Shown one piece after another: positions 774-27,260 of a DNA stretch of 64,000 bases. A model generated the notes under the pieces. The model was not told where the DNA came from, searched no databases, and saw only the letters and a program-made list of their open reading frames with translations. The DNA lies in assembly GCA_902794075.1 (NCBI GenBank), contig CADBGE010000001.1:208137-272136 (forward strand). The letters are read 5' to 3'. Within the stretch, counting starts at the first letter, position 1. Each line of letters opens with the position of its first letter. A program made the position numbers and the translations under genes. The stretch is from an uncultured Erysipelotrichaceae bacterium. GTDB lineage: Bacteria; Bacillota_I; Bacilli_A; RF39; UBA660.

Positions 774-2384
774 ATGGCTGAAAAACTAAATGTAGATACT
801 ATAAAACGAATTTCCGAATTAACTACTGTTAAAAAAATATCTGATCTTCAAACAATTCCAATAATAGAAAATGTAAATGGAACATATGTAACAACACAAC
901 AGTATAATAATTCTTATTTATTATCATCAACATATTTTCCAGATAACACATCTTATGGTAGATACATTAATTATAAAGTTAAGATATCTGATGTTACATA
1001 TTATTTATCTACTTTGGGTTCAGAAGATTTAAATTCATTTAAAGCAACATTCAATAATTTCATTAATAATTTATGTGAAAATACTAAAAACTCATATGTT
1101 CAGCTCGTTAAAAATCAAGATGCGACAGATGATTATTCATATACTTTTAAATATCAGTTAAGTTCTATTATGCCAGAATCGCACTCTCCATTTAGTTATA
1201 ATGATGGAGAAAATTCTACTTATGCATATACTAATAAATTAACTGATGGTATTGTAACAAATTACGTTCTTGAGGAATATATTCGTGAAACATTAGGAAG
1301 AATTCTTGGAGTTCCATCAACACCGGCATATATTTCTGAAGCAATAGATTCAGTTATAGAATTTGTTGATTGGTTTAAGGGATACACAAAAGATAAAGAT
1401 GGGTTAAATGAATTACTCACAAAAATTGATAACAAAGATAATGAAATAATAGCATCATATACGAATGCAGATCAAGATATAATAGATTCATATACAGCAG
1501 CAGATACTGAAATTATTAATAAAATAAATAACATAAATATTAAACCAAAAGCCGGAACAAATATTTCTATTGGAGAAGACAATAGTGTAAATTGCGATAT
1601 TGGATTAGATTCAACCAATAATAAATCATTCACGATTGGTAATAGTAAATATTCTTTAAATTTTGTTGGAGGACAATTTTATATAAGTGAAGTAAATAAT
1701 CCATATGTTCAAATAACATTAACATTAAATTCACCAAGTTCGGCAACATTACCTCCCATTGAATATGGGGATGAAAATGCATTAACCACAATAAATTTGA
1801 GTGCAACACCTTCTAAAGATTGTACAATTATAAGCGGCACATCATCAAATTGGGCAACAGTGAGTTCAACAACCCAATCAGCAGGTACAGCAATTAAAGC
1901 AAACAATGTACCATGTTCCACAACATCAAATTTTTCAGCATCATTAAAAGTTAAAGAAATATTAACACAAGATGAAATTGATTATGGGGGCAATACAGCA
2001 AAAACAGCAGACATCACGGTAAAAAGAAATATAATATATGATAGTTGGAGATATTTTAATGTTACTGCATTAGATCTTACTAATGGATTAACATCAACAG
2101 ATTTTGCTAATTTTAGTAAATTAAATAATAAAAATTCAAATGGCTATTCATCACAATATATTTTTACAGATTCTGAAATGTCGGGTGGTAAATATGTATA
2201 TATATTAATAAAAAAATCAAGCGGTACATTTATTCTTGGAAGCGAAACAACGCCAGGACAATTTCCAGGTGGCGTTACAAATACAGAAAAAACATATAAA
2301 CCTTATGGTTCAAGTGGACCAACATATTATTTATATAGGGTTACAGAAAGGCAATCAGGTGCTTTTAATATAACAGTTTCTTAA
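774..2384 (+). CDS. Putative virion structural / fibre-associated protein (536 aa)
   Basis: Starts the plus-strand structural operon. Carries the ADxxII.SYT decapeptide motif twice (IASYTNADQDIIDSYTAADTEIIN), which is also tandemly repeated in fibre 33903-35525. Ser/Thr/Asn-rich beta-type composition. Confidence 0.7.
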   Translation: MAEKLNVDTIKRISELTTVKKISDLQTIPIIENVNGTYVTTQQYNNSYLLSSTYFPDNTSYGRYINYKVKISDVTYYLSTLGSEDLNSFKATFNNFINNLCENTKNSYVQLVKNQDATDDYSYTFKYQLSSIMPESHSPFSYNDGENSTYAYTNKLTDGIVTNYVLEEYIRETLGRILGVPSTPAYISEAIDSVIEFVDWFKGYTKDKDGLNELLTKIDNKDNEIIASYTNADQDIIDSYTAADTEIINKINNINIKPKAGTNISIGEDNSVNCDIGLDSTNNKSFTIGNSKYSLNFVGGQFYISEVNNPYVQITLTLNSPSSATLPPIEYGDENALTTINLSATPSKDCTIISGTSSNWATVSSTTQSAGTAIKANNVPCSTTSNFSASLKVKEILTQDEIDYGGNTAKTADITVKRNIIYDSWRYFNVTALDLTNGLTSTDFANFSKLNNKNSNGYSSQYIFTDSEMSGGKYVYILIKKSSGTFILGSETTPGQFPGGVTNTEKTYKPYGSSGPTYYLYRVTERQSGAFNITVS

Positions 2385-2417
2385 ATATAAATTAAAAAAT
2401 AATTAGTAAACAATCAT

Positions 2418-5400
2418 ATGGCCAAAACAGAAGATAAATCAAATAAATTATATGGCACAGGCGTTGGTGAAAATAATATTACTCCAACAACAAATAATTT
2501 AACAAATATTGGTTCAAAAATAACGTCATTAAATCCAGGTGATGAATATGCAATGATTGATGCGTTCAACATTGATTGGGAAAGCGGTGAATATAAATAT
2601 TCAGATGATAGTGATGATATTATTCATTCTACCGGTCATTTTGTTGAAATTGTTAAACAAAAGGCTGCCGAAGGCGGTGCTGATGTATGGGATGATATAA
2701 AAGTAAGTAATTATATAACTTCTCAAATAATTATTTATGCAACAAGTAATGTAAAAACACCACCTGAATGTGATTTTTCTGGTGAACCAATAAACATAAA
2801 TAATTATGATAAACAAGTTTATGCTAACCTTCCTGAAGGGTGGGTAGAATCATTAGACAATGTTGAAAGTAATTATTATGTATTCCAAACATCTGTTTAT
2901 GAGGTAAGAACATTAAATAATGAACGCATAGGTTATCATGAGCCAATTGGTGAAGTGATTTATTTACTTGGAGAAAATGGTATAAATGGCAATTTTAAGA
3001 GTACTGTATTTTGTAGAACAAATGAAACACCTGTTGCACCAAAACAAGGAGCATATTACAATACGGGGCTTCCGAGTGACATAAAAGTATATAGAGATAA
3101 TAATAGTTCACAAGAATCAGAAATATCTAACGCAGAATGGTCAGACGGTATTCCAGAAGGTCAAGAAATTCTTTGGGCATCAACAGCTATAATTTCAGAT
3201 AATAATGGAAGTGAAGATGAGACGGCAGTTTGGACTACTCCAAGACAAATGACTGATACTGCCACATATGACGTTGAATTTTCACCTTACTCTAACTCAA
3301 ATAATACTGCCCCATTGACACTTCCATCAGATAACGATAATGAAAATGGAAATAGACATAATACTTCTCTTTCAAGAAATCAACGTTGGTTTGATTTAAC
3401 ATTAGATAATGAATTACGAAACGGGATAAGTAATGTTGATGAAAATGGACAAATTCCTATATCTGGAGGCAATAAGCCAACTTGGAAATCTATGATTTGG
3501 CGTGCTGAACGTGAGTGTATAAATGGCGTTTGGTCTAATTGGACAATAAGTAGAATTAAAGGTGAGCAAGGAACTGCTGGTATTAAGGGAGATTTTAAAT
3601 CAACTGTATTTAAGCGTTCTGAAAATATGCCTGACCGTCCGTCTGATAATGACGGTACCTATAACAATCCTGTTCCAAGTGGTTGGTCTGATGGTATTCC
3701 TAATGGAATAGGTCCAGTATGGTCAACATGGAGAACATTTAGTGTGAATGACAATAATTCTAGTTGGACAACACCGACACTTGTTGCTGATACTCCAACT
3801 TATGATGTTGAATTTAGTCAATTACAATCAGAATACGGTAATCCAACAGACAACCCAAATAACTGGTTTGATCCCACAAAAGATACATTACCAGAAGACA
3901 TAACATGGGAAGACATGATTTGGCGTGCTGAACGTAATCGAGCAACATCTCAGGATGAATGGTCAGAATGGGTAATCACAAAAATAAAAGGTGAAGATGG
4001 TACAATAGGTTTAAATTCTCCATACTTTGAACAACGTTGGGGTGTATTTGATAAAACAATTACTCCAACAGCACCAGATAATAATGCTATAACATTAAAT
4101 ACAGATCACACTACTTGGAAACTAACTCCACAATATACTCCAGGAAAGAACACATGGATGACTGCTCGTAAAGTTATTTATACTATTAACAATAATGAGC
4201 AGTCTGCTCAATATGATGAAGATTCTACATGGAGTACACCAATGCGTATGTCTGGAGTTGATGGAGTTTCTCAACCAATACAACCCGTACTTAAATATCA
4301 ATGGACAGCTTCTAACATAGTCACACCTCAGTTAGATCAGAATGGAAATACTGAAAATCCTGGAAATGCATGGAAAGAAGCACCAGGAAATCCCACATCA
4401 ACAAATAAATATCTTTGGATGATTCAGGGCCAACGTCAAAATGGTTCAATGATAACTTGGGATGCTAATTCAGATGAAACAGTTGGAACTAATGAATATT
4501 GGACGTCACCTGTTTGCTTAAGTGGAGCCGATGGTCAACCAGGTAAAGATGGAGATGATTTAGAATTCATATATCATGTGTATGATGAAGTGCCTGCATT
4601 CAGCAATGATAACAATAATCCAGCATATTGGGAAGTTAGTTCACAAGATAATTATTTAGGACCAGAAAATAACAAATGGAATAATAATCCAACTGGTGTT
4701 ACTATAACAGATAAATATGAATATTGTTCATATCGTAGAAAAACAGGAAATCCAAAGGCTTGGACAAAATTTAGCATGCCATTTCCTTGGTCTATATATG
4801 GAGAAAACGGTATAGATGGAGACGGAGTCGAATACATATATGCAGTTACTCCAACAGATACAGCACCAACTCAACCAGAAATAACTTCAGACAATTATAC
4901 ATCATCACAACAATCAGAATGGGGCGTTGATGAAAATATTAATGGAGTTATATGGCATGATGATCCACAACAATTAAATAATGAAAACCAAAAATATCAA
5001 TGGGTATCAGTAAGAAAATATAGATATCCAAAACAAAATGAAACGCTTGGTGGTAATGCATTAGATCATAATAAGAAATATTGGTTTAATTATTCAACAC
5101 CGCAACTTTGGAATTGGTATATAAATAACGGTACAAATGCTCCAAGAATTGTGATGGCATATAAACGTACAAGTTCAAACGATATATCATCATTATATTC
5201 TGTTGGAACAACAGATATTCTTTATCCTAATGATGGACATATATGGATAAGCGGTGAGCATAGTTATGATCAAAATTGGTGTGAAAGCCCAGGAAACAAT
5301 ACACAAGATACTGGTGATGAATTTCTATGGATGATTCAAGCATATTATACAAATGTTGAAAATAATGTCCGCGCAAATGGTGGAACATTTAATAAATATA

Positions 5401-8400
5401 CATTAGAAGGATCATGGTCAACACCAATATGTCTAACAGGCGAACCTGGGCATGAAGGTGAAGATGGTTCTGATATAGAATTCATATATTATAGAACTGC
5501 TGATGATAATAAAGTGCCAACAGTTCCTGATTCAGAAAATTTTGAGGACGGACAGTATAATGAATCAGATTGGCCATTTGTCAATCTAAAAAGAACTCAT
5601 GATGAAATAACTAATTCATCAGTTTTTGATTCAACAATAACTAAAGATGGAATAAAATATTTGATTAATGACAATAAATATGATATTCTTGAAGATGAAA
5701 CAATATATAATAGTTATTCTGATAATTTTACACAAATACCATCTGACATGCTTCATGATGTTTGGACTGACAATCCTCTTGGTGTAACATCAACATATGA
5801 TTATGAATATGCAGCAGTTCGTAGAAAACCTGCTGGAAGTAATTCGCAATGGGGTGAATTTTCACCAGTGTTCCTGTGGTCAAAATATGGTGAAGACGGT
5901 GTAGACGGTGATGGAGTTGAGTATATATATTATTTAAGTTCAGATGAAAATGAAGTAACATTTGATGCATTATCAGAAACAAGTAATAATTCATCAAACA
6001 ATCCAGCAAATTGGGAAATTAGTCAAAATCCAGAATATATAGCAAATAATGGATGGACTGATGATCCATCAGGAGTTTCCATAGATAATAGATGGGAATA
6101 CGTATCTGTCCGTCATAAAAGATTTGATGCAGAATCTAATACTACAACATGGGGTAAATATTCTGAACCATCGCTTTGGGCTCATTTTGCAGTAGACGGA
6201 CTTGCAACAAATCTTGTTCTTGAATCAGATAATGACAATATAACTGTTGGTATAACAAGTGAAGGAACTATAAATAATAATTATAGTGATTCAGTTAATT
6301 TTACTCTTGTATTTAATACAAGGCCACTTAATTTAGATACTGACTATACATTAAAAATTTTAACTGAACCAACACCATCTGGTGAAAGTAATTATAATCC
6401 ATTTGGAACAAAAACAGATACTACAATACCGTTTAATAATGATTTATTCCAAGGAAATTTCGCATCTTTAACAAATAACACATTAACAGTCAATATACCT
6501 GAAGGTTTTGACATGAGTCAATATGATTACATTATGTCTATAACTCTTGAGGCAAAAATTATACGAAACGATATTGATGGATTAGAAATAGATACTCCAG
6601 CAATATTTACATTAAAAATATCTGGTGTTGAACTATCAATTAATGACATATATAAGTTAAATATTGATAGACAGGTTATTAAATTAGACCCAAATGATCA
6701 GAAATATGATACTTTAAACATAAGTTTAAAATCGTTAACAAGTGTTAATTCTATAACAGAAAACAGTGAAGCAACAGATAAACATTTATATATAAGATAT
6801 AATATTTCTGAAAGAAACAATATAGATCCTGATGGTAATTTAATAAATGTTAATAATTATTATATACCAATTGGCGATTATACTCCAGATAAACATTATA
6901 ATAAGCATACATTTAGATTATATTATATATTAGATGATAGCTTTTTTGATGAACCTCGTTTTGATTATAAATTAACAGACAATGTATTAAATGCGCATGG
7001 TGCTGTATTATTAGACACTGAAACAATATCTGCTGTATGGGATGGCGCTAATGGTAACCCAGGAACTGATTCTAAATCACAAGAATATATATATTTTGTA
7101 ACAGATGACATATCTTATTTTGAAAGCGGAAATCACGCAAACATAAATCCAAATAATTGGGATACACACGAAAATGTTATCATAAATAATGTATCGTATT
7201 ACGCATATCTTACAGATGATTTTCCGTTTGTCAATGGACAAACTACATATCTTGGATGGGAAGATACTCACATAGGAATTAGTGAAGAACATCCATATCA
7301 GTTCATGTCCACTCGTGAATATAACACAACAACTAAAGAATGGGGTAAGTTTAGTTCTCCAGAATGTTCTCACAATTGGGGACACTCTGGTGAAGATGGA
7401 GATGGAGTTGAATATATCTATTATTTAAATGATTCTGCAACATTTAATGGTGATAAACCACAGACATGGTATAATGATACTAACTATCAAAATTCTGAAT
7501 ATATAAAAACAAATACAAATTGGACTGATAATCCATCAGGTGTTTCAGAAAATAAAAAATATGAATGGATTTCTGTTCGTAAATATAAATATGAATGCCC
7601 ATCAGATATACTATGGAATGCTATATTAAAAGAGGGAATATACAATGTAGACGAATGGCAAAAATTTGAAAATGATTTTAATATAAATAGTTATAATACA
7701 AAACAAGCATTTACATCGAAATATGAAGAAGAGGGCAGTCCAATTTCATTCCAGGATGTAGGAAACGATAATAGTAATATAAAACAATTTTTAGAAGATA
7801 ATCATGCGTTTTCTGATGGAAATCCATTTTGGGAAGCAATAAAATATGTATATAAATTATTTAGAACATATGATGAATTAGAAAATGTATTTAATCATAC
7901 AAAAAATAAAATATGGTCGCAATATTCAGAACCAACTCTTTGGGCAAAATATGGGGGAAAAGGTGCCACTGGAGATACTGGTGGTTCAGGGTTAACTTTT
8001 GATTTTGACAATCCAAGTATTCAGATTGCTGTAAATAGTAATGGAAAGATAAAAGATTATCAAGAAGTTACAACATATTTAAATGTTTATGAAGGCGCTT
8101 CAAAAATTTCTGCAAAAGATATAACATTATCCATAATTTCTAATGGTACTCATGATGCATTTGAACATTCATATAGTGATACTGATAAATATGGATATAC
8201 ATTATTTAACAGTAATAGTAGTAACAATGGAACATCAACATATTATACTTGGAAAATTGGTGATGTAGATATTGATAATATTGGAAATAATAATATTGTA
8301 CAGCTCACAGAAAATTCAAGTATAGAATTTAATATAAGTTATAAAGGCAATGATTATGTAAAGCGCGTTTCATTAGTTCCAATCAAATATGGTGAAGATG

Positions 8401-11400
8401 GGGCAAATGCTGTTGTGTTTGATTTATATTGTCCTACGTCAGTAATTCATTATAATGCAATGGATAACACTCCATCGTTTAACCCAACTACTATATCTGA
8501 CATAAAGGTTAGAAAAATAGAAAATAGTAATGTTGAATATAAAATTACTGAAGGAAATAATGAAAATGAAAATGGATTTTCAATAAGTTATTATATGGAA
8601 TTTCCATTAGCTACTTCTCAAGCAACAGGCGGAAATGCTGGTGAAATTGGAGGAAGTATAGTTAGACCAAAGTCATCACCACAAATGGCAGCAAAAAATA
8701 TTTCTGGCTACATATATAATGAAACATTAGATATTAATGACAAAATAAATAATGCTTTAAACGATGATAAGAACTATGATATTCCTAAAACAGTAAAACT
8801 TTCATTATATCATACAGAAAGCGATACTACAGCATTATGGGATGAAACAGATCTTGAGATTATATATGATGGCATAAATGGTGTTGACGGACGATATGAA
8901 GAATATATTTATTATTGTCCACAAAACTCAAATCAAATAAATTGGACAACAATAAATGATGCTTTGAATCCTACAACATGGGCAGCAAATTCAACAAATA
9001 AAGACAATGAAAAACTTTCCGATGTTGATGATTTCATTAAGTCAGGTCAAGAAGAAAATTGGTATGACCATCCAACAGGCGTTGATGAAACACATGTGTA
9101 TGAATATTTTGCACATCGTACATTCAATAAAACAACCGGTAAATGGAACATTTATGATACGGTAGGAATATGGTCACATTGGGGAAGTGACGGTAAAGAT
9201 GGCGATGGTGTTGAATATATATATGCTGTTGGAAATAATTCAGATTGGAAAACAGCAATAGGGTGGAGCGATGGAGCTATACAAAATGCAGATAGAGACC
9301 CAAGAAGATGGATTTTGTTTAAAGGTGGAAATCAATCAACATTATCTACAATAGCTTGGAACGACAATTATCAAACAACAGAATATCATAGAACAGATTC
9401 AAATTTTTCAACAGTATGGGAAGATGACCCAATTAAAAATTTATCTGAAGGTTATTATCAATTTTGTTCAACAAGAAAATATAAATTATTAACGCAAGAA
9501 TACGTTAATAACATAACTATATCAACATTACAATCAGAATTTGGATTTATATCTATAGAATCAACACAAGAAAAATTAAATACTGTTAAATCAATTTTAT
9601 CGTCATATATTGGACAAAAAATATGGCTCCCATATTCCGAACCAACTATTTGGTCAAGTAATATACCTGGGCAGCCCGGGCAAAAAGGTGCTGATGCAGT
9701 AGTATTAGATTGGACAAATGACCAGATTAATTTAGCTGTTGATGAAAATGGAAAAATATATAATGGTGTTCCACAATATAAATCAACAACATTAAAATTA
9801 TTAAATTCAGGTAATGATTTAACAATAACTGATTTAAACTGTTATGGCGATAATGATTATTTTGAAATTAATCTAACAAACTCAGCCGGAGGAGAAGGTG
9901 ATACAATTGAAGTTAATGATAAAATAAACATATATTCATCTTACTCAGAAAGTGATAAAGATTTTACAATAAATATTTCTATTGCTAGTAATTTTAATGA
10001 AGACATAACAATTCCTGAGAATGGTTTAGAAGTAACATTTACTGTTACATTATCTAATAGTAAAACATTAACAAAGGTACTTAAAATCTGTGGTCAACAT
10101 ATTCCAAGTGACGGTATTAATGGACAAAACGCCGTTACTTATGAATTAGATGTTACACCAAATTCATTATCATATTCATCTTTTTCACCAAATGTAAATG
10201 TTACGATAAATGTATTAAAATATAATGGAACATCTGTAACGAGATTAAGTACATCAGAAGACTTTGGCGCAAATAATATATATTTTACAACATCATTTTA
10301 TGATATAACGTTTGAACATACTGTAGTAGACACATATAATCAATCAAATTCTAAATCAATACCTAAAACATTTAGAGGACGAGATATTTATAATACAGGA
10401 TATGTTGTAATTAAAATGTATTATAAAAATGATGGAACTTATATCCAAATTGATTCAGAAACAATACCTGTGATTTGTGACGGTGAACAAGGTGCTCAAG
10501 GATTTACTGGACCTGTTGTTAGAAACTGTGGAGAATATTCTCACTCAAGAAAATACGGTAATGGCAATTATAATAAATCTAATGCTGGACCACAATATGA
10601 TGAAACTTCAATATTATATAAAGATATTGTATCATATACAAATAGAATAGGTACAAAATTTTATACTCCTTCAACATCAACAACATATATAACAGAAACA
10701 AATAATACATATCTATGTAAAGGAAGTGCATATATTGTTGGAACATATCCTGCTCCACCAAATACTAATTCAATAAATACGGGTTGGACAGTAGCTACTC
10801 AGTTTGATTTCATTGCCACAAAACTTCTATATGCTGACCAAGCGTTGATTAACCAAATATCAACACATGATTTGATTGCTACTAATAAGGATGGTTATCC
10901 TGTTGCAGGTGTAACCAGTGGTTCAAAGATGTACGATAAGAATAACAATGAAATTACATCATATCTTTCAACACTTGGAACAGTAAATTATTCAGAAAAC
11001 GCCGTATCATCTCAGAATGATCCGTCAAATGTTCGTATCTTTGCTGGAGAAATATGGGATGGTAATAATTCATATTCATTAACATATGCGCCATTTAATG
11101 TTCGTCAAGACGGTACGGCATATATGAGTAAAGCTATTATTGAAGGTACTGTTACAGCTAGTAATTTAAAACTTAAAGAAAATGTAAATGCAAATACGCT
11201 CGACCAAAAAGGTTCGTTTACATATTGGGATATATTAAATGGAGACAGATACGTACCGAATCTTAATGAAGGTGAGGTTGGTTTATACTATATATTATCA
11301 ATATATGGAAATAGTAATAGTAATATACATATAAAAACACCATATCCAGGAAATGGTATTCCACGTAATGCATTCTTTAAAAAATCAATAAATGGTAAAT

Positions 11401-11885
11401 CTGTTTTATCTGATGATGCTTATTACATGAGGCCTCCAAAGAATACATTATGTCAATTAGTTGGAATCAATGCAGATAATATAACATATTGGAATATTAT
11501 TGAGACACCATTAGCAGAACAAAAAATACCAGATACAATTCTTGAGCATTATGATTGTACAGATGATGTAATTTTATTTGCATATAACTTAGGAGATTAT
11601 TATACTAAAAATAATAATGGAAATGATGTTAAAATAAGTTATTTATGCACACGAGCAGATGATTATGATGGTTTTCTGCCAATACGTAGAGTTACCTTTG
11701 AAGGCGGAAACGGAACTGATGCGGACGATGTTTGGGTAGAATATACTTTTTTAACATATTTACAAAGTGATTCATCTAAACATACTACTAATGGCGCATA
11801 TGCTAATTTGGGTTTTTTGAGATATGTTAAGGATGAGTATAAGTCTTGGCGACCAGAAGGAGAATCAGTAAATCCAAATTCATAA
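2418..11885 (+). CDS. Giant (3155 aa) repeat-containing virion protein, putative tail fibre / adhesin
   Basis: Single uninterrupted ORF. About 10 iterations of W(S/T)xP...G(E/A)DG.DG.GVEYIY(Y/A): short collagen-like Gly-X-Y runs followed by an EYIY strand, e.g. YGENGIDGDGVEYIYAV, YGEDGVDGDGVEYIYYL, GADGQPGKDGDDLEFIYHV. The C-terminal region resembles fibre tips. Confidence 0.8.
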   Translation: MAKTEDKSNKLYGTGVGENNITPTTNNLTNIGSKITSLNPGDEYAMIDAFNIDWESGEYKYSDDSDDIIHSTGHFVEIVKQKAAEGGADVWDDIKVSNYITSQIIIYATSNVKTPPECDFSGEPININNYDKQVYANLPEGWVESLDNVESNYYVFQTSVYEVRTLNNERIGYHEPIGEVIYLLGENGINGNFKSTVFCRTNETPVAPKQGAYYNTGLPSDIKVYRDNNSSQESEISNAEWSDGIPEGQEILWASTAIISDNNGSEDETAVWTTPRQMTDTATYDVEFSPYSNSNNTAPLTLPSDNDNENGNRHNTSLSRNQRWFDLTLDNELRNGISNVDENGQIPISGGNKPTWKSMIWRAERECINGVWSNWTISRIKGEQGTAGIKGDFKSTVFKRSENMPDRPSDNDGTYNNPVPSGWSDGIPNGIGPVWSTWRTFSVNDNNSSWTTPTLVADTPTYDVEFSQLQSEYGNPTDNPNNWFDPTKDTLPEDITWEDMIWRAERNRATSQDEWSEWVITKIKGEDGTIGLNSPYFEQRWGVFDKTITPTAPDNNAITLNTDHTTWKLTPQYTPGKNTWMTARKVIYTINNNEQSAQYDEDSTWSTPMRMSGVDGVSQPIQPVLKYQWTASNIVTPQLDQNGNTENPGNAWKEAPGNPTSTNKYLWMIQGQRQNGSMITWDANSDETVGTNEYWTSPVCLSGADGQPGKDGDDLEFIYHVYDEVPAFSNDNNNPAYWEVSSQDNYLGPENNKWNNNPTGVTITDKYEYCSYRRKTGNPKAWTKFSMPFPWSIYGENGIDGDGVEYIYAVTPTDTAPTQPEITSDNYTSSQQSEWGVDENINGVIWHDDPQQLNNENQKYQWVSVRKYRYPKQNETLGGNALDHNKKYWFNYSTPQLWNWYINNGTNAPRIVMAYKRTSSNDISSLYSVGTTDILYPNDGHIWISGEHSYDQNWCESPGNNTQDTGDEFLWMIQAYYTNVENNVRANGGTFNKYTLEGSWSTPICLTGEPGHEGEDGSDIEFIYYRTADDNKVPTVPDSENFEDGQYNESDWPFVNLKRTHDEITNSSVFDSTITKDGIKYLINDNKYDILEDETIYNSYSDNFTQIPSDMLHDVWTDNPLGVTSTYDYEYAAVRRKPAGSNSQWGEFSPVFLWSKYGEDGVDGDGVEYIYYLSSDENEVTFDALSETSNNSSNNPANWEISQNPEYIANNGWTDDPSGVSIDNRWEYVSVRHKRFDAESNTTTWGKYSEPSLWAHFAVDGLATNLVLESDNDNITVGITSEGTINNNYSDSVNFTLVFNTRPLNLDTDYTLKILTEPTPSGESNYNPFGTKTDTTIPFNNDLFQGNFASLTNNTLTVNIPEGFDMSQYDYIMSITLEAKIIRNDIDGLEIDTPAIFTLKISGVELSINDIYKLNIDRQVIKLDPNDQKYDTLNISLKSLTSVNSITENSEATDKHLYIRYNISERNNIDPDGNLINVNNYYIPIGDYTPDKHYNKHTFRLYYILDDSFFDEPRFDYKLTDNVLNAHGAVLLDTETISAVWDGANGNPGTDSKSQEYIYFVTDDISYFESGNHANINPNNWDTHENVIINNVSYYAYLTDDFPFVNGQTTYLGWEDTHIGISEEHPYQFMSTREYNTTTKEWGKFSSPECSHNWGHSGEDGDGVEYIYYLNDSATFNGDKPQTWYNDTNYQNSEYIKTNTNWTDNPSGVSENKKYEWISVRKYKYECPSDILWNAILKEGIYNVDEWQKFENDFNINSYNTKQAFTSKYEEEGSPISFQDVGNDNSNIKQFLEDNHAFSDGNPFWEAIKYVYKLFRTYDELENVFNHTKNKIWSQYSEPTLWAKYGGKGATGDTGGSGLTFDFDNPSIQIAVNSNGKIKDYQEVTTYLNVYEGASKISAKDITLSIISNGTHDAFEHSYSDTDKYGYTLFNSNSSNNGTSTYYTWKIGDVDIDNIGNNNIVQLTENSSIEFNISYKGNDYVKRVSLVPIKYGEDGANAVVFDLYCPTSVIHYNAMDNTPSFNPTTISDIKVRKIENSNVEYKITEGNNENENGFSISYYMEFPLATSQATGGNAGEIGGSIVRPKSSPQMAAKNISGYIYNETLDINDKINNALNDDKNYDIPKTVKLSLYHTESDTTALWDETDLEIIYDGINGVDGRYEEYIYYCPQNSNQINWTTINDALNPTTWAANSTNKDNEKLSDVDDFIKSGQEENWYDHPTGVDETHVYEYFAHRTFNKTTGKWNIYDTVGIWSHWGSDGKDGDGVEYIYAVGNNSDWKTAIGWSDGAIQNADRDPRRWILFKGGNQSTLSTIAWNDNYQTTEYHRTDSNFSTVWEDDPIKNLSEGYYQFCSTRKYKLLTQEYVNNITISTLQSEFGFISIESTQEKLNTVKSILSSYIGQKIWLPYSEPTIWSSNIPGQPGQKGADAVVLDWTNDQINLAVDENGKIYNGVPQYKSTTLKLLNSGNDLTITDLNCYGDNDYFEINLTNSAGGEGDTIEVNDKINIYSSYSESDKDFTINISIASNFNEDITIPENGLEVTFTVTLSNSKTLTKVLKICGQHIPSDGINGQNAVTYELDVTPNSLSYSSFSPNVNVTINVLKYNGTSVTRLSTSEDFGANNIYFTTSFYDITFEHTVVDTYNQSNSKSIPKTFRGRDIYNTGYVVIKMYYKNDGTYIQIDSETIPVICDGEQGAQGFTGPVVRNCGEYSHSRKYGNGNYNKSNAGPQYDETSILYKDIVSYTNRIGTKFYTPSTSTTYITETNNTYLCKGSAYIVGTYPAPPNTNSINTGWTVATQFDFIATKLLYADQALINQISTHDLIATNKDGYPVAGVTSGSKMYDKNNNEITSYLSTLGTVNYSENAVSSQNDPSNVRIFAGEIWDGNNSYSLTYAPFNVRQDGTAYMSKAIIEGTVTASNLKLKENVNANTLDQKGSFTYWDILNGDRYVPNLNEGEVGLYYILSIYGNSNSNIHIKTPYPGNGIPRNAFFKKSINGKSVLSDDAYYMRPPKNTLCQLVGINADNITYWNIIETPLAEQKIPDTILEHYDCTDDVILFAYNLGDYYTKNNNGNDVKISYLCTRADDYDGFLPIRRVTFEGGNGTDADDVWVEYTFLTYLQSDSSKHTTNGAYANLGFLRYVKDEYKSWRPEGESVNPNS

Positions 11886-11924: not shown

Positions 11925-12410
11925 ATGCCAAATCAAACAGTATATCCACAAATAGATCAACCAACAGTTATTACTGGAGACGGTATGCAAATACCTCTTG
12001 CATGGGGCGGTAAAGCTGGAGGTATATCATTTAATAAAATAGCAATACCACCTGGATTAACATTACATAAAATAGTTATACATTATTCAAAAAATAATGG
12101 TATTGGGTCAATTGATGGATTTCCAATTCACACAACTTATGTAATGCCAAATGCAGCATTTGCTGCTAGTGGAATTGCTGTAGAAAATGTTCCAACTGGC
12201 GGATATTCTCAAAGCAAATATATATCTTATATAGATTTATCAAATATTAATTCTTTTATGAATGAACAGGCTGATAATATAAATAAAATAACTCAAGAAG
12301 AATCAATAATTGATGCAGCAGGGGCATTATATGCAGCAGATAGTTGGGTTACAACAAATACGTTTTATGTAAAAAATGCAGAAACAGTAGACGCAAAGGA
12401 TCCTTCTTAA
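11925..12410 (+). CDS. Hypothetical structural-operon protein (161 aa)
   Basis: Follows the giant gene on the same strand. Ends just before a strong bidirectional terminator. Confidence 0.6.
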   Translation: MPNQTVYPQIDQPTVITGDGMQIPLAWGGKAGGISFNKIAIPPGLTLHKIVIHYSKNNGIGSIDGFPIHTTYVMPNAAFAASGIAVENVPTGGYSQSKYISYIDLSNINSFMNEQADNINKITQEESIIDAAGALYAADSWVTTNTFYVKNAETVDAKDPS

Positions 12411-12450: not shown

Positions 12451-12485
12451 AAAAATCCATGGAACTCGAGTTCCATGGATTTTTA
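12451..12485. terminator. Bidirectional rho-independent terminator
   Basis: Perfect palindrome AAAAATCCATGGAACTC|GAGTTCCATGGATTTTT between convergent genes (11925-12410 plus, 12510-13166 minus). A-tract and T-tract on both sides. Confidence 0.8.
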
Positions 12486-12509: not shown

Positions 12510-13166
12510 TTATATGTTAATGAAATGCGATTCGTTAATGTTTTCTTTTTCATGATCATCTTCATAAATTTCTTCTTCAGGATTATCTTCATCAATGATT
12601 TTTTCAACATCACCTTCTATTGGTACATTAGTTTCTTCATCTTCTTTATCAACTTCTTCTATAATAACATCGGTTGTTTTATCATCCTTAAGATATGATG
12701 AATTTTTTGAATTATCTTCAAGATAGTTTGCGATCATTGCTGTCATGGCAAGCGCGACAATCGGGAGAACGGCTCCCACTATGTATGTGACTAATACTGT
12801 AGTGACATTATCAGGCAAATCAGTCCAAACAAAGATAGGCTCTTTAAAATATTGAAGATCCCCCACATTGTGCTGCATTAGATACTTATATGAACTAAAA
12901 ACATTACCAATTATTTGAACTAAAGTCAATAAAGTCATTAAAGCCCATGGCATAAATCTACTTCTATCTTTACTTGATGTTAGAATAGCAAATAGCACAG
13001 CAGCCTGTCCAATTTCAAATGCAGTACCAAGCATAATGCTCATACCAGTATTGTTTGCTAATCCAAAAAAACTAAAACTATGTATTAACGATACTAACGC
13101 AACAACTGCATATAGTATCGCAAATAATGTTATATATATGTTTCGTTTTGTAAAAAATTTTTTCAT
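12510..13166 (-). CDS. Integral membrane protein with highly acidic C-terminal tail
   Basis: About 4 hydrophobic helices (LFAILYAVVALVSLI, AAVLFAILTS, LMTLLTLVQIIG, VLPIVALAMTAMIA). The C-terminal 50 aa are D/E-rich. Confidence 0.65.
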   Translation of the reverse strand: MKKFFTKRNIYITLFAILYAVVALVSLIHSFSFFGLANNTGMSIMLGTAFEIGQAAVLFAILTSSKDRSRFMPWALMTLLTLVQIIGNVFSSYKYLMQHNVGDLQYFKEPIFVWTDLPDNVTTVLVTYIVGAVLPIVALAMTAMIANYLEDNSKNSSYLKDDKTTDVIIEEVDKEDEETNVPIEGDVEKIIDEDNPEEEIYEDDHEKENINESHFINI

Positions 13167-13323: not shown

Positions 13324-13773
13324 TCATTTAATGAACATTTTTCTTATGTCATCAGGTATTTTTGGCGATCCTTTAAATATATTATTTGTCATACATCCTT
13401 TAGAAAGTTTCCATTTCATAATCCCATCAAGATCCTCAAGTTCAGGACATAAAGAAAACATATTGACCATGTTAAAAATATTTGAAATATCCCATGTATC
13501 AAGTCCAATTATTTGTTCAAGATTTGGACAATTACAGAACATATATTTTGTTTCTGTAAACATAGATGTGTTCCATCCTGTTACATTTATAATTTTAGAT
13601 TCATTTGTTAAGAATTGAAAATCCATTTCTTCAAAGGATCTGTCATTTTCAAAATATATGTCACTTAAATCTAAAATACCATTTTCTGTTGTTCTTTCTT
13701 TAACTATTTTTTGAAATTCAATTTTATTCTTTACACATGTAACACTTTTATAATCTTTATTTATCTTAATCAT
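13324..13773 (-). CDS. DUF285 / BspA-like repeat protein (149 aa)
   Basis: Contains the W-D-(V/I)-S-N...MF..C..(L/F)-x repeat signature (GWNTSMF...MFCNCPNLEQ...LDTWDISNIFNMVNMFSLCPELE), typical of DUF285 surface-protein repeats. Confidence 0.6.
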   Translation of the reverse strand: MIKINKDYKSVTCVKNKIEFQKIVKERTTENGILDLSDIYFENDRSFEEMDFQFLTNESKIINVTGWNTSMFTETKYMFCNCPNLEQIIGLDTWDISNIFNMVNMFSLCPELEDLDGIMKWKLSKGCMTNNIFKGSPKIPDDIRKMFIK

Positions 13774-14303: not shown

Positions 14304-14615
14304 TTAGATTTCTGTAATTCTTTTTCTCTCAAGTTCCTTTTGAACTGAAGCCCTAAGCCCATTGCTTTTGTATGTGTTATTCCAAAAATTATTTGAATCT
14401 TCTAATGAATACCAAAATTCCAATGAATCTGGTTCTGATGTATTTGTTGCTCGAGGCTTAAAAAGATATGCATAATCAATATCCTTTAATGTCTTAAGAG
14501 TATCTAATGCCTCTGATCTTGACTTTACTAATTTTCTATCAATACTTCCGTTTTTTGTTCTATATTCAAGATCATACATATTTATACTTTCTAAAAATTG
14601 TTTTAATGTTTTCAT
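14304..14615 (-). CDS. Hypothetical protein with CTS-like N-terminus (MKTLKQFLES)
   Basis: 103 aa. 4-nt ATGA overlap with the upstream sigma-like gene indicates translational coupling. Confidence 0.6.
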   Translation of the reverse strand: MKTLKQFLESINMYDLEYRTKNGSIDRKLVKSRSEALDTLKTLKDIDYAYLFKPRATNTSEPDSLEFWYSLEDSNNFWNNTYKSNGLRASVQKELERKRITEI

Positions 14616-15790
14616 TCGTCGTCTGAATTATTATTTTTAATGATATCGTTTGTGTTTAGACCGTCCTCAATAAGATCATCATCATGTTCATATTCATGTA
14701 AACATTCCTTCATAAGTTCATAAATCTCTTTCATTTTTGCCATGACAGTCTTATCGTTCTTAATAAAATTGTTTACTGTGTTACAGTAATATGTAACGAG
14801 TGATGGCTGACATCCAATCTTTTCAGCAATTTCTTTATTCTTTAGTTTCTCACGTCCATTAAGACCCATGAATGAATACCAAGCTTCAATGACCTTCTTA
14901 TCAAATTCTTTCTCAAGAATACGATATACATCAGCCCACAACTTGTCAAGATCTTGTTGGTCAAGTGTGCGTTCACCATCGTCTGTTCCTCCTACAAAAT
15001 CAAATAATGACTTCTTGCCACCATCGTCATCTTTACCAACCTTTTTATCGCCACTAATGGTGTTGTTTTTAGTAATAGATCCTTTCTCTTTCTTTTCTTT
15101 ACTGAGAACAGAAATTGGAATACGAACAAGACGTGAAGCATTATTAACTTCAGCAACAATTGCGAAACGTATCATATATGCAGCAAATTGTCCAAATGTA
15201 TATGTCTTTACAGCTTTCTCATCTTCTATATCTTTGTATGCTGATTTCTTTCCGTATGTATTCATTGCGTTAACAAATCCCTCTAATGCAGCGGACTTAA
15301 GCTGTTTGTCATCCAAGTTAACCTTGCCTTCCCATTGATGAATAATCTTGTATATTAGTTTCATATACTTTTGAACTAACGCATTACGTCCTTCTTCACT
15401 CTTAAGGTCAAGAATGATGCTATCGGGTGCTTCCTTACCTGAAATGATTGCATTAAACTGTTCCTTAGTCTGTAGTGTTGGAATCTCAAGAAGTCTGTTG
15501 TTCTTTTCAAGCTTAGACAGTGCTGCATAAAGATCCTTTAATTCTCCAGAGGATGGACGAGGATGAGAATAGAATGATACTAGACAATTGTCATTAGATC
15601 CCTTTCCAAGAGTTTCAACATAAGTTTTGTTGTTCTTAATCATATAATTAATTATGGTCATAGCCTCTTGAGAAAGAAAGTTCTTAGCAATTTCTACATA
15701 TTTCTTCAAATCTTCTACATCAATAAAATTAATTCCATTGTCCTGTACATCAAGTGTTCTACCTTCCAATAATTGAGTAAATTTCTTCAT
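14612..15790 (-). CDS. Sigma-70 family RNA polymerase sigma factor (phage-encoded)
   Basis: Region 2 signature FGQFAAYMIRFAIVAEVNNASRLVRIP (compare F.TYA.WWIRQAI.R.I..Q.R.IRIP). C-terminal region-4-like HTH at EKLKNKEIAEKIGCQPSLVTYYCNTV. Confidence 0.7.
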   Translation of the reverse strand: MKKFTQLLEGRTLDVQDNGINFIDVEDLKKYVEIAKNFLSQEAMTIINYMIKNNKTYVETLGKGSNDNCLVSFYSHPRPSSGELKDLYAALSKLEKNNRLLEIPTLQTKEQFNAIISGKEAPDSIILDLKSEEGRNALVQKYMKLIYKIIHQWEGKVNLDDKQLKSAALEGFVNAMNTYGKKSAYKDIEDEKAVKTYTFGQFAAYMIRFAIVAEVNNASRLVRIPISVLSKEKKEKGSITKNNTISGDKKVGKDDDGGKKSLFDFVGGTDDGERTLDQQDLDKLWADVYRILEKEFDKKVIEAWYSFMGLNGREKLKNKEIAEKIGCQPSLVTYYCNTVNNFIKNDKTVMAKMKEIYELMKECLHEYEHDDDLIEDGLNTNDIIKNNNSDDE

Positions 15791-19788: not shown

Positions 19789-20418
19789 GTATAAATATCT
19801 TTTATTTAATGGAATCATTGACAGTAATTTATGAAATTCATTTTCAAGTTCATTGTTCGCAATTCCACATTTTTTATAAATTTTTAACAGATCAGAACCA
19901 AGCTTAATTTTATAAAATATATTTTTACAGCTATTGGGTATGCATTGGTTATAGATTAATTCCTTTATTTTTATATGATAATTAATTGATTCATACAAAA
20001 TTTTTGATGTATGTATTTCGCCGTTATAATAATAAGTTATTTCTTTAACTAATAAATTATTTTTATATTCTTTTTTATCATCTAATATTTTTTTTGTTTT
20101 GTTACAGATATCAACAAATAAATATTGTTTTTGTATATTGGATAATATTTGTTTAATCACATTATTTAAATACTTAAAAACATCGTTCAATTCACCCTCA
20201 TCAACGAGTTCCAAATTTTCATTATGTAAAACAATAATGTCTAAATCTTTATTTATGTTTCTTTTAACATCACGTAAATTATAAAATGGCTCATTATAAA
20301 GTAATGAGCCAACTAATACAAAACAATATTTATCTTTAAAATATTTAGAAACATTTTCATATATATGTATATAGATATTAAATCTACTGTTATTAATTCT
20401 ATCGTCCATCATATTCAA
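19783..20418 (-). CDS. Hypothetical protein, weak nucleotidyltransferase-like motif
   Basis: 211 aa. VLVGSLLYNEP...DLDIIVL loosely fits the GS...D.D pattern of Pol-beta-type nucleotidyltransferases. Convergent 6-nt overlap with the helicase stop. Confidence 0.45.
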   Translation of the reverse strand: MNMMDDRINNSRFNIYIHIYENVSKYFKDKYCFVLVGSLLYNEPFYNLRDVKRNINKDLDIIVLHNENLELVDEGELNDVFKYLNNVIKQILSNIQKQYLFVDICNKTKKILDDKKEYKNNLLVKEITYYYNGEIHTSKILYESINYHIKIKELIYNQCIPNSCKNIFYKIKLGSDLLKIYKKCGIANNELENEFHKLLSMIPLNKRYLYL

Positions 20419-22822: not shown

Positions 22823-22840
22823 ATTTTAAAACATTAATTC

Positions 22841-23785: not shown

Positions 23786-23837
23786 GAATAAATATTGTGA
23801 TTGTTTGTAAAAAACTAATTTTATTTTATATATAAAA

Positions 23838-23931: not shown

Positions 23932-23932
23932 A

Positions 23933-24763: not shown

Positions 24764-24804
24764 TTATTCTTATACATTTTTTAAAATTTTTTAAAAGTTA
24801 TAAT

Positions 24805-25692: not shown

Positions 25693-25714
25693 GTTTAGCT
25701 TATATATAAAATGT

Positions 25715-27242: not shown

Positions 27243-27260
27243 AAATTACGTTTCGTTAAA

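What the first reader, a model, noticed from the sequence alone, without database searches (positions are those of the whole stretch)
2418..11885. 3155-aa giant protein built from about 10 collagen-like GxxGxxG / EYIY repeat modules
One uninterrupted 9.5-kb ORF. The recurring module is W(S/T)xP(x)L(W/S)..(Y)GEDG.DGDGVEYIY(Y/A)(L/V), with weaker variants (GEQGTAGIKGDFKSTVFKR; GANGNPGTDSKSQEYIYFV). The modules are separated by 150-350 aa spacer domains.

The architecture suggests a long modular fibre or adhesin in which short triple-helix-like Gly triplets nucleate trimerisation before each beta-domain.

Such giant proteins are uncommon. The gene sits with two other structural genes in a separate plus-strand operon, away from the main fibre cassette.
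Basis: seen in the sequence. Interest (0 to 1): 0.55.

Follow-up and report, generated by a model that had tools for sequence, protein, structure and literature searches.

The report
Giant modular fibre protein of megaphage
A 3155-residue protein of a roughly 400-kb gut phage is a string of about 18 beta-rich modules joined by very short collagen-like glycine triplets. It is most likely a long three-chain virion fibre for sticking to host cells, built from domain families that no curated database yet describes.

Summary
ORF 2418..11885 (+) is intact at 3155 aa, and the identical protein occurs on 11 independent contigs, eight of them 0.2-1 Mb. G..G..G occurs 21 times against 1.1 expected, and E[YF]IY 8 times against 0.09.

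The layout is N, A, A, A3, C, B-B, C, B-B, S, B-B, S, B-B, S, T. The eight "EYIY" modules (B) come in four adjacent pairs. The "FKSTVF" modules (A) belong to a different family.

Neither family is in Pfam, PHROGs, NCBIfam or PDB. A B-module profile nevertheless finds 1900 cluster representatives, with up to 30 copies in one protein, mostly in crAss-like and other Bacteroidota phages.

At the same junction in relatives the Gly-X-Y run ranges from 3 to 18 glycines, and the glycines are invariant among orthologues. The short triplets are therefore minimal forms of a real collagen-like connector.

Orthologues are strongly mosaic: identity is 91-97% in some modules and 27-41% in S1, B7 and B8, and the distal tip is swapped. 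This is typical of host-recognition fibres.

AlphaFold monomer models were poor, so trimer state, fold and virion location remain inferred. I judge it a new variant of a known kind and moderately interesting.

The parts
774..2384 (+). Upstream gene of the same operon (536 aa), function unknown. Its C-terminal half is conserved in the two genes upstream of the orthologue in locus L001.
   Evidence: E=4e-10 and 3e-7 to L001 338-aa and 468-aa proteins. No Pfam, PHROG, PDB or phage hit. The gap to the giant ORF is 33 nt.
2418..11885 (+). Giant ORF, 3155 aa plus stop codon.
2418..2969 (+). N domain (aa 1-184), found only in the orthologue group. Presumed virion-attachment end.
   Evidence: Helices at aa 72-97 followed by strands in the model. 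The attachment role is inferred.
2970..3989 (+). Two A modules (aa 185-381 and 382-524). Each has Gly triplets, then FKSTVF.R, WSDGIP, W.TP, YDVEF, W.DP, MIWRAER and IKGE.
   Evidence: This is the most widely shared part of the protein (about 112 of 120 homologues). It matches the pb4-type straight-fibre region of a T5-like Aeromonas phage. pLDDT is 70-84.
3990..4214 (+). A3 module (aa 525-599), a shortened A-like unit that starts with GEDGTIG.
4215..4523 (+). C1 module (aa 600-702). It ends W.SPVCLSG and leads into a Gly run.
   Evidence: aa 652-720 versus 954-1025, 40% identity, E=5e-12.
4524..5129 (+). B1-B2 pair (aa 703-794 and 795-904). Each has Gly triplets, an E[YF]IY strand, W.D.P.GV, YEY.S.R and W..FS.P..W.
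   Evidence: G703, G706, G709, G795, G798, G801 and G803 are invariant in 21 orthologues.
5130..5438 (+). C2 module (aa 905-1007).
   Evidence: Only 46% identical to P0001, while its neighbouring modules are 85-93% identical.
5439..6209 (+). B3-B4 pair (aa 1008-1157 and 1158-1264).
6210..7043 (+). S1 spacer module (aa 1265-1542), beta-rich. It is the most divergent part among close orthologues.
   Evidence: 27% identity to P0001, flanked by modules at 54-97%.
7044..7952 (+). B5-B6 pair (aa 1543-1654 and 1655-1845; B6 carries a long insertion).
7953..8870 (+). S2 spacer module (aa 1846-2151). It begins with the longest Gly run in the protein, GGKGATGDTGGSG.
8871..9668 (+). B7-B8 pair (aa 2152-2255 and 2256-2417).
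   Evidence: 34% and 41% identical to P0001, which indicates a swapped cassette.
9669..10481 (+). S3 spacer module (aa 2418-2688). It begins PGQPGQKG.
   Evidence: strands only, pLDDT 30-45.
10482..11258 (+). T1 (aa 2689-2947), the conserved proximal part of the C-terminal domain. It starts GEQGAQGFTG and has 72 invariant columns.
   Evidence: 52-72% identity across orthologues.
11259..11882 (+). T2 (aa 2948-3155), the variable distal tip. Candidate receptor-binding end.
   Evidence: Identity is 24-30% in distant orthologues but 92% in P0002, whose T1 is only 69% identical, which indicates tip exchange. No homologue is found outside the orthologue group.
11925..12410 (+). Downstream gene of the operon (161 aa), function unknown. 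Its N-terminal motif is shared with the two genes downstream of the orthologue in L001.
   Evidence: E=3e-6 and 5e-4. No hit elsewhere.
12451..12484 (.). Perfect 15-bp-stem hairpin between the convergent operon end and the minus-strand gene 12510-13166. Probable bidirectional terminator.

Best explanation
The gene encodes a very long, probably homotrimeric, virion-surface fibre of an uncultured ~400-kb phage. The phage is related to the Lak/Mahaphage megaphages and is probably hosted by gut Bacteroidota.

The chain is a series of about 18 beta-rich modules. Nearly every module begins directly after 2-4 Gly-X-Y triplets. I propose that these triplets form short collagen-type triple-helical staples. 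The staples would keep three chains in register between successive trimeric modules and give the shaft defined hinge and spacer points.

The proposed roles of the parts are as follows. The N domain fixes the fibre to the particle. The A, C and B-B modules form the shaft. The S modules and the distal T2 tip are exchanged between related phages and would be the ligand-binding parts that adhere to host surface glycans or proteins.

**Shown:** the module anatomy, the conservation of the glycines, the variable length of the collagen run in relatives, the mosaicism, the phage context and the phage-restricted distribution.

**Inferred:** the trimeric state, the triple-helical conformation of the short runs, the presence in the virion, the tail rather than head location, and which modules bind ligand.
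For: **Intact, conserved gene.** The ORF is intact and the identical protein is found on 11 contigs. About 20 full-length orthologues of 2.3-3.8 kaa exist.

**Phage context.**
- The contig is 400 kb, with dense small ORFs.
- Its Hsp70 is 53% identical to those of Lak megaphages.
- No Shine-Dalgarno-like leaders are seen.
- Module relatives occur in Bacteroides and crAss-like phages.

**Collagen-like junctions.**
- Gly triplets sit at 14 module boundaries.
- They are among the invariant columns in 21 orthologues at 46-82% identity. This is unlike a passive linker.
- Of 1014 B-module starts in 219 family proteins, 307 have 3, 309 have 4 and 133 have 5-18 in-phase glycines.
- 100 of 256 family proteins carry runs of 6 or more glycines, with a charged X/Y composition rich in Pro, Gln and Thr.
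- P0124 passes Pfam Collagen with E=1e-8. A collagen triple helix requires three chains (established knowledge; phage precedent in PMC3368898).

**Models.** Monomer AlphaFold models give isolated beta modules at pLDDT 50-84. The Gly runs score below 50, and only three strands are predicted per B module. This is as expected if the fold is completed by other chains.

**Links to tail proteins.**
- BFVD matches reach E=3e-17 to 'tail protein', 'tail fiber protein', 'tip attachment protein J', 'straight fiber PB4' and a crAss 'collagen triple helix repeat protein'.
- cr6_1 gp08 is annotated as a straight-fibre tail protein.
- An A-module match lies in the pb4 region of a T5-like phage.

**Mosaicism.** Identity to P0001 is 91-97% in A3, C1, B1, B2, B5 and B6, but 27% in S1 and 34% and 41% in B7 and B8. 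The T2 tip is swapped independently of T1.

**Phage-restricted distribution.** The DGDGVEYIY coding pattern is found in 105 IMG/VR contigs. It is found in only 5 contigs of the species-representative genome collection, all of them MAG contigs.
Against: **No direct evidence.** Nothing here shows virion incorporation or oligomeric state.

**Short runs.** Two to four triplets are far shorter than any collagen helix known to be stable alone. The consensus GxxGxDGDG breaks strict periodicity after the third glycine. 265 of 1014 B modules (26%) have no run of three or more in-phase glycines, so the staple is not obligatory.

**Weak structural support.**
- The AlphaFold models are low confidence (mean pLDDT 54.5 and 47.4). 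The PDB fold search found nothing significant; the best phage hit, T5 pb4 7zn2_f, had E=0.17.
- The BFVD matches have TM-scores of about 0.1. They rest largely on homologous repeats, and the target annotations are automatic.

**Uninformative context.** The operon sits among replication and transcription genes rather than next to recognisable tail genes. Its two neighbouring genes are uninformative.
Confidence: 0.6

Rival explanations
1. The protein is a monomeric 'beads-on-a-string' decoration or adhesin. It would resemble Hoc-type or BACON/Ig-repeat proteins, with independent beta-sandwich domains joined by flexible Gly-rich linkers. It would bind mucus or host glycans from the capsid or tail surface without forming a triple helix.
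For: - The Gly runs in this protein are only 2-4 triplets.
- 26% of B modules in the family lack such a run.
- A modules are predicted as self-contained multi-strand beta units with pLDDT 70-84 from a monomer model.
- The Gly runs are predicted as unstructured.
Against: - The junction glycines are invariant across orthologues.
- Homologous junctions expand to 8-18 in-phase glycines, and these relatives meet the Pfam Collagen or Scl-type collagen models.
- No Ig, FN3, BACON or other known repeat model matches any module, even at E<=1.
- B modules show only three predicted strands in about 90 aa, too few for a standalone sandwich.
Confidence: 0.2
2. The protein is the central (straight) tail-tip fibre of the phage, the counterpart of T5 pb4 or of the distal part of lambda J. 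It would not be a side fibre or whisker.
For: - cr6_1 gp08, which carries B modules, is annotated 'straight fibre tail protein / Pb4'.
- An A-module match lies between 'central tail fiber J' and 'tail protein' fragments of a Demerecviridae genome.
- BFVD hits include 'Straight fiber protein PB4 spike domain' (E=1e-4), 'Central straight fiber' (E=5e-4) and 'Tip attachment protein J' (E=9e-8).
Against: - Profiles of the A, B and T modules do not detect T5 pb4 or any other PDB chain.
- The Foldseek match to T5 pb4 (7zn2_f) has E=0.17 and TM 0.07-0.11.
- The gene is not next to a tape-measure, hub or baseplate gene within 10 kb on either side.
- Megaphages of this clade are expected to be myovirus-like with a baseplate; this is my own knowledge and was not tested here.
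Confidence: 0.12
3. The protein is not a virion component. It would be a protein exported or displayed during infection, for example to modify the host surface or exclude superinfection. Alternatively it is a cellular adhesin on a mis-assembled contig.
For: There is no proteomic evidence for virion incorporation. The neighbouring genes are non-structural.
Against: - Identical gene order is seen on 11 contigs and in a 417-kb relative.
- The module family is essentially confined to viral contigs.
- The mosaic pattern is that of host-range determinants.
Confidence: 0.05

Closest known systems
Prophage collagen-like side-tail-fibre proteins of E. coli O157:H7 (EPclA/EPclB; Ghosh et al. 2012, PMC3368898)
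   Same: Both are phage-encoded fibre proteins in which Gly-X-Y repeats lie between non-collagen modules. In EPclA/EPclB trimerisation is provided by the flanking domains. Their proposed role is host attachment.
   Different: EPcl proteins are small. They have one long collagen domain plus a coiled coil and a C-terminal trimerisation domain. Here there are 14 micro-runs of 2-4 triplets spread over 3155 aa, there is no coiled coil, and the flanking domain families (A, B, C, S, T) are unrelated and undescribed.
B-module proteins of crAss-like and other Bacteroides phages (cr6_1 gp08 'straight fibre tail protein', 1692 aa; DAC15_37, 1018 aa; DAC23_160)
   Same: They carry true homologues of the C-B-B modules at about 28-33% identity. 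The host phylum and habitat are the same.
   Different: They are one third to one half the size. They lack the N, S and T domains. They belong to unrelated phage lineages (Crassvirales versus a Lak-related megaphage), which implies horizontal exchange of modules.
T5 pb4 central straight fibre (PDB 7ZN2 and related)
   Same: It is a trimeric tail-tip fibre made of a string of small beta domains. pb4-type annotation is attached to relatives of the A and B modules.
   Different: There is no detectable sequence or significant fold match to T5 pb4 itself. pb4 is about 670-690 aa.
Pfam PF19079 CFSR, 'collagen-flanked surface repeat'
   Same: It follows the same architectural principle, a small beta unit bracketed by Gly-X-Y runs. 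A family member, P0211, has a weak CFSR-like unit (E=4e-4, below cut-off) upstream of its C-B-B modules.
   Different: The giant protein itself has no CFSR match at E<=1. CFSR is a 49-residue unit that is different from A, B, C and S.
T4 long tail fibre proteins (gp34, gp37)
   Same: They are long trimeric fibres built from repeated beta modules with a variable distal tip (PMC5537660 abstract).
   Different: There is no homology. The T4 gp37-like protein of this phage is a different gene, at 22841-23785 on the minus strand.

Membership tests
Collagen triple-helix repeat proteins (Pfam PF01391; Scl-type NF038329) | A long uninterrupted (Gly-X-Y)n tract that matches the family model. | tested here: not met
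   The longest run in the giant protein is 5 in-phase glycines (aa 1846-1858); the others have 3-4. There is no Pfam or NCBIfam hit at E<=1. Relatives do meet the feature: P0124 hits PF01391 with E=1e-8 and NF038329 with E=1e-14.
Collagen triple-helix repeat proteins (Pfam PF01391; Scl-type NF038329) | Three chains wound into a triple helix (trimeric state, PPII-type CD signal). | not testable with these tools
   Only monomer AlphaFold was available. The Gly runs have pLDDT below 50.
Phage tail fibre / receptor-binding fibre (generic) | Conserved virion-proximal part with variable, horizontally exchanged distal or ligand-binding parts. | tested here: met
   Per-module identity to P0001 ranges from 27% to 97%. 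T1 is conserved and T2 is swapped. Module number and order differ among orthologues.
Phage tail fibre / receptor-binding fibre (generic) | Homology to proteins known or annotated as tail fibres. | tested here: inconclusive
   There are sequence and 3Di matches to proteins annotated as tail, tail fibre, J or pb4. Those annotations are automatic or HHpred-based. No PHROG tail family matches and no solved fibre structure matches.
Phage tail fibre / receptor-binding fibre (generic) | Presence in the virion, attached to the tail. | not testable with these tools
   The phage is uncultured and no proteomics or EM data exist.
T5 pb4-type central straight fibre | FN3-domain string plus beta-helical spike that is detectably similar to pb4. 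| tested here: not met
   No fn3 or pb4 model matches. The profiles do not find T5 pb4 in PDB. The Foldseek match to 7zn2_f has E=0.17.
T5 pb4-type central straight fibre | Gene adjacent to tape-measure, distal-tail or hub genes. | tested here: not met
   The neighbours within 10 kb are unknown small ORFs, a weak DNA polymerase B hit, a WYL protein, a sigma-like factor and a helicase.
Pfam PF19079 CFSR (collagen-flanked surface repeat) | A match to the 49-residue CFSR model. | tested here: not met
   The giant protein and the A and B module sets give no hit at E<=1. Only relative P0211 hits, and it is sub-threshold at 20.9 bits against a cut-off of 27.
Ig/FN3/BACON-type phage decoration repeats (Hoc-like) | A match to Ig-like, fn3, Big or BACON models. 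| tested here: not met
   The giant protein has no Pfam family at E<=1. A few distant family members carry precomputed Pfam families in other regions, such as PF13004 and PF02839.

The most novel reading that the evidence does not exclude
The protein may represent an undescribed architectural class of phage fibre, a 'collagen-stapled' multi-cassette trimer.

In this reading, micro-collagen junctions of 2-4 triplets register a series of trimeric beta modules. The junctions also mark the boundaries of exchangeable cassettes: the S modules, the B-B pairs and the T2 tip. A single 3155-aa fibre would then carry several independently swappable ligand-binding sites. This would give a megaphage combinatorial, multivalent host recognition.

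The B and A modules would be new trimeric folds. They would be shared horizontally between Crassvirales, ~180-kb Bacteroides phages and Lak-related megaphages.
Probability: 0.3. Interest if true: 0.62.

Novelty: new variant of a known kind. Interest (0 to 1): 0.45.

Why it matters
Lak-type megaphages and most crAss-like phages are uncultured, and how they recognise their hosts is essentially unknown.

This gene is a strong candidate for a host-recognition fibre. Its swappable modules (S1, B7-B8, T2) are concrete targets for predicting or testing host range.

The B module (at least 1900 clusters at 50% identity, up to 30 copies per protein) and the A module are abundant gut-virome domains. Pfam, PHROGs, NCBIfam and PDB all lack them. 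Defining them would improve annotation of thousands of 'hypothetical' phage proteins.

If the micro-collagen junctions are triple-helical, they would be among the shortest functional collagen segments known. They could also serve as a design principle for registering trimeric modules.

Tried and rejected
**Database scans that found nothing**
- Pfam, PHROGs and NCBIfam scans of the whole protein, of 33 B modules, of 21 A modules and of 9 T domains gave nothing usable.
- Sequence and profile searches of PDB with the whole protein and with the B, A and T profiles gave only chance-level hits, E>=0.13.

**Structure prediction and fold search**
- Two AlphaFold2 monomer jobs (aa 1-1200 and 2150-3155, each with 21-row alignments) gave mean pLDDT 54.5 and 47.4. 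I use them only for secondary structure and domain boundaries.
- Foldseek against PDB gave no hit at E<=0.001.
- The BFVD hits are local, with TM about 0.1. I treat them as annotation leads, not as fold assignments.

**Ideas tested and dropped**
- Common ancestry of the A and B modules: only an 18-column motif aligned, at probability 7%. Not claimed.
- A shared N-terminal anchor motif between the giant protein and neighbouring genes of L001: E=0.36. Rejected as insignificant.
- Paralogues of the modules elsewhere in the window: none.
- Identical DNA tracts at module junctions as recombination substrates: the copies are only 60-88% identical. Not supported.

**Searches that failed or were uninformative**
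- The T domain in the wider protein database gave only fragments of orthologues.
- The flanking genes have no homologue in 50,697 phage records or in PDB.
- The search for related loci with the B alignment failed because no conserved stretch was available. I replaced it with a degenerate DNA pattern.
- My first two self-BLAST attempts returned only the identity hit. I replaced them with a segment-wise search.
- No literature on 'collagen-flanked surface repeat' was found.
Full report

Yes. The ORF listing gives a single ORF at 2418..11885 on the plus strand, 3155 aa, starting at ATG. The translation has no internal stop.

The exact protein sequence is on record from 11 contigs of independent assemblies, eight of them 0.2-1 Mb. 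Orthologues of 3114 aa (70% identity) and 3063 aa (63% identity) preserve the frame over 99% of the length.

The motif counts are far above chance. G..G..G occurs 21 times against 1.08 +/- 1.10 (maximum 7) in 2000 shuffles. E[YF]IY occurs 8 times against 0.09.

Because a self-BLAST reports only the identity hit, I compared 150-aa segments against the whole protein. This gave 84 off-diagonal matches, down to E=4e-22. An HMM built from the EYIY modules recovers eight copies with E from 2e-24 to 4e-40.

At the DNA level the copies of the junction are only 60-88% identical. The repeats are therefore old, are kept by selection on the protein, and pose no assembly problem.

**2. Anatomy.**

HMMs of the recurrent pieces resolve the chain as follows:

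| Module | Residues (aa) |
|---|---|
| N | 1-184 |
| A | 185-381 |
| A | 382-524 |
| A3 | 525-599 |
| C | 600-702 |
| B-B pair | 703-794 / 795-904 |
| C | 905-1007 |
| B-B pair | 1008-1157 / 1158-1264 |
| S | 1265-1542 |
| B-B pair | 1543-1654 / 1655-1845 |
| S | 1846-2151 |
| B-B pair | 2152-2255 / 2256-2417 |
| S | 2418-2688 |
| T | 2689-3155 |

- **B module.** It is about 90-160 aa. It starts with 3-4 in-phase glycines, followed directly by the strand E[YF]IY, a variable loop, and then W-x-D-x-P-x-G-V, Y-E-Y-x-S-x-R and W-x-x-F-S-x-P-x-x-W (alignment A1). The second module of each pair always begins G..G.DGDGVEYIY.
- **A module.** Profile-profile comparison with B aligns only 18 columns, at 7% probability.
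- **Junctions.** Every A, B, S and T unit starts immediately after a Gly-X-Y run. The distances between runs are 92-385 aa.

**3. Context.**

The window belongs to a ~400-kb contig with dense, mostly unknown ORFs and about 30% GC. Other genes in the window are:
- an Hsp70 that is 53% identical to those of the Prevotella Lak megaphages and of the 735-kb LR756501 phage;
- RtcB, two helicases, a sigma-like factor and a gp32-like protein.

The phage is not in the phage collection at the DNA level.

The giant gene is the middle of a three-gene plus-strand unit (774-2384, 2418-11885, 11925-12410) with 33- and 39-nt gaps. The unit ends at a perfect 15-bp hairpin at 12451-12484.

A 417-kb relative has the same arrangement. 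Its upstream and downstream genes share domains with the window's neighbours.

The neighbours match nothing known, so calling them 'structural' is unsupported.

A distinct fibre cassette does exist on the minus strand. ORF 22841-23785 matches T4 gp37-type tail-fibre tips (phrog_1980, E=4e-19). ORF 30878-32563 is a coiled-coil protein with weak tail-needle hits.

**4. What are the modules?**

None is in Pfam, PHROGs or NCBIfam, and none matches a solved structure by sequence. They are nevertheless common:
- A profile of 33 B modules finds 1900 proteins at E<=1e-3 among 1.84 billion 50%-identity cluster representatives, 635 of them at E<=1e-30. One 7375-aa protein has up to 30 copies.
- Among annotated phages, the C-B-B region matches crAss-like phages and Bacteroides thetaiotaomicron phages of 99 kb and about 170-180 kb, at about 28-33% identity. 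One of these is cr6_1 gp08, 1692 aa, annotated 'straight fibre tail protein / Pb4'.
- The A modules match the frameshifted straight-fibre region of a T5-like Aeromonas phage.
- A degenerate DNA pattern for DGDGVEYIY hits 105 IMG/VR contigs, mostly 50-105 kb. It hits only 5 contigs in the collection of 185,579 species-representative genomes. All five are MAG contigs assigned to unrelated taxa and are probably mis-binned phage.

The family is therefore a phage family, concentrated in gut Bacteroidota phages. It is shared across unrelated phage lineages.

**5. Are the glycine triplets collagen?**

In this protein the runs are too short (3-5 glycines) to satisfy any collagen model. Three observations nevertheless argue that they are minimal versions of a real collagen-like connector rather than casual linkers.

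- The junction glycines are invariant in an alignment of 21 orthologues with 46-82% identity. Examples are G703, G706, G709, G795, G798, G801 and G803. The T-domain junction GE.G.QGFTG is equally conserved.
- I examined the junction immediately before the E[YF]IY strand at 1014 B-module starts in 219 proteins. The in-phase glycine run has 3 glycines in 307 cases, 4 in 309 and 5-18 in 133. An example is GNRGVDGAQGADGKDGAPGEKGETGSQGPQGEKGEKGEKGDKGDPGISGTDGTRFEFIY.
- 100 of 256 family proteins have runs of 6 or more glycines. Their X/Y composition is of the charged type rich in Pro, Gln and Thr. One relative passes Pfam Collagen and the Scl collagen-adhesin model.

A collagen helix needs three chains. 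Family members with long runs are therefore almost certainly trimers, and by homology the module array here probably is as well.

Against this, 26% of B modules have no run of three or more glycines. The oligomeric state could not be computed with the tools at hand.

In the characterised prophage collagen-like fibre proteins the flanking domains are the trimerisation modules (PMC3368898).

**6. Structure prediction.**

Two monomer AlphaFold2 runs with 21-sequence alignments were of low confidence: aa 1-1200 gave mean pLDDT 54.5 and aa 2150-3155 gave 47.4. They are useful only at a coarse level:
- the protein is almost all beta;
- A modules reach pLDDT 70-84 with about seven strands;
- B modules show only three strands (the EYIY, YEY.S.R and P..WS segments), at pLDDT about 60-79;
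- all Gly runs fall below 50.

A three-strand unit that a monomer model cannot close is what one would expect of a fold completed by symmetry mates. This is an inference, not a result.

Foldseek against PDB found nothing significant. Foldseek against predicted viral structures gave E-values down to 3e-17 to proteins named tail protein, tail fibre, tip attachment protein J, straight fibre PB4 and crAss 'collagen triple helix repeat protein'. The TM-scores were about 0.1, so these are local matches that largely reflect the same repeats.

**7. Evolutionary behaviour.**

Orthologues differ in module number and order. B copies range from 4 to 10, A modules are sometimes relocated near the C-terminus, and extra S modules occur.

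Identity to the closest orthologue, P0001, is a patchwork:

| Identity to P0001 | Modules |
|---|---|
| 91-97% | A3, C1, B1, B2, B5, B6 |
| 54% | B4 |
| 46% | C2 |
| 41% | B8 |
| 34% | B7 |
| 27% | S1 |

The C-terminal domain splits into two parts. T1 (aa 2689-2947) is conserved, with 72 invariant columns and 52-72% identity. T2 (aa 2948-3155) is variable, at 24-30% identity in distant orthologues. Yet T2 is 92% identical in P0002, whose T1 is only 69% identical.

Cassette exchange of this kind is the signature of phage host-recognition proteins. It points to S1-S3, B7-B8 and T2 as the parts under diversifying pressure.

**8. Best explanation and rivals.**

- **Best explanation (0.6).** The protein is a long, probably trimeric, virion fibre. 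It would be anchored by the N domain. Its shaft of A/C/B-B modules would be held in register by micro-collagen staples. The exchangeable S modules and the T2 tip would bind host surface structures.
- **Monomeric beads-on-a-string decoration protein (0.2).** This is favoured by the shortness of the runs and by the autonomous-looking A modules. It is disfavoured by the glycine invariance, by the long collagen runs at homologous junctions, and by the absence of any Ig/FN3-type signal.
- **pb4/J-like central tail-tip fibre (0.12).** This is suggested by annotations of relatives. It is not supported by any direct match to T5 pb4 or by gene neighbourhood.
- **Non-virion protein or artefact (0.05).**

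**9. Comparison with the known, and novelty.**

Collagen-like segments in phage fibres are known, as are giant repetitive fibres, so the kind is not new. What differs is the architecture:
- 14 very short, conserved Gly-X-Y junctions delimit about 18 modules in one 3155-aa chain;
- the chain is built from at least four domain families absent from every curated library;
- cassette-level exchange reaches inside the shaft;
- the modules are shared between Crassvirales, ~180-kb Bacteroides phages and a Lak-related megaphage.

I rate it a new variant of a known kind, with interest 0.45. It is useful for annotating the gut virome and as an entry point to megaphage host recognition. It would not startle a phage structural biologist unless the micro-collagen, multi-cassette model is confirmed.

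Noticed in passing
window 48632-50548 (-): A full-length Hsp70/DnaK homologue (PF00012, E=1e-193). It is 53% identical to those of Prevotella Lak megaphages and 50-51% identical to those of 635-735-kb uncultured phages. This places the ~400-kb source phage near the Lak/Mahaphage group, although ORFs here read through normally in code 11.
   Followed up: partly
window 22841-23785 (-), within the block 20399-35525 (-): A 314-aa protein matching T4 gp37-type tail-fibre distal tips (phrog_1980, E=4e-19). It sits in a run of large unknown minus-strand ORFs. ORF 30878-32563 is a coiled-coil protein (DUF7310) with weak tail-needle-knob hits. This is probably the phage's other fibre cassette.
   Followed up: partly
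window 51814-53034 (-): An RtcB-type tRNA-splicing ligase (phrog_1075, E=3e-121). No tRNA gene is found anywhere in the 64-kb window.
   Followed up: no
window 40864-44598 (+): A 1244-aa protein that combines a weak BT4734-like N-terminal domain hit with a DEAD/ResIII helicase core. Possibly a primase-helicase-type replication protein.
   Followed up: no
window 14612-15790 (-) and 37309-38385 (-): A sigma-factor-like protein (phrog_351, E=1e-15) and a weak gp32-like ssDNA-binding protein (PF08804, just below cut-off). They lie between the giant gene and the minus-strand fibre block.
   Followed up: no
window 12451-12484: A perfect 15-bp-stem, 4-nt-loop palindrome (AAAAATCCATGGAACTCGAGTTCCATGGATTTTT) between two convergent genes. 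Probable bidirectional terminator. It contains NcoI and XhoI-type palindromic sites.
   Followed up: no
L009-L013 (genome contigs): The DGDGVEYIY coding pattern occurs in MAGs assigned to Methanomassiliicoccaceae, Clostridium, Mollicutes, Roseburia (a 172-kb contig) and Agathobaculum. The taxonomic scatter suggests phage contigs mis-binned into MAGs.
   Followed up: no
P0121 (7375 aa) and P0124 (1257 aa): Extreme family members. P0121 has 30 B modules in 7375 aa, with 8-9-glycine collagen runs before many of them. P0124 packs 13 B modules into 1257 aa and passes Pfam Collagen.
   Followed up: partly
L001 20768-22348 (+) and window 13324-13773 (-): DUF285/BspA-like leucine-rich-repeat proteins lie next to the giant-fibre operon in both the window phage and its 417-kb relative. 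For the window this rests on PF03382, seen on the L002 copy. For the L001 526-aa protein it rests on my reading of the sequence. In L001 the N-terminus of that protein shares a motif with the window's 161-aa downstream gene.
   Followed up: no
L002 399-626 (-), upstream of the window region: An eIF-1a/IF1-like small protein (PF01176) is encoded about 9 kb upstream of the giant gene on the 400-kb contig. Translation-factor genes are a known trait of huge phages.
   Followed up: no
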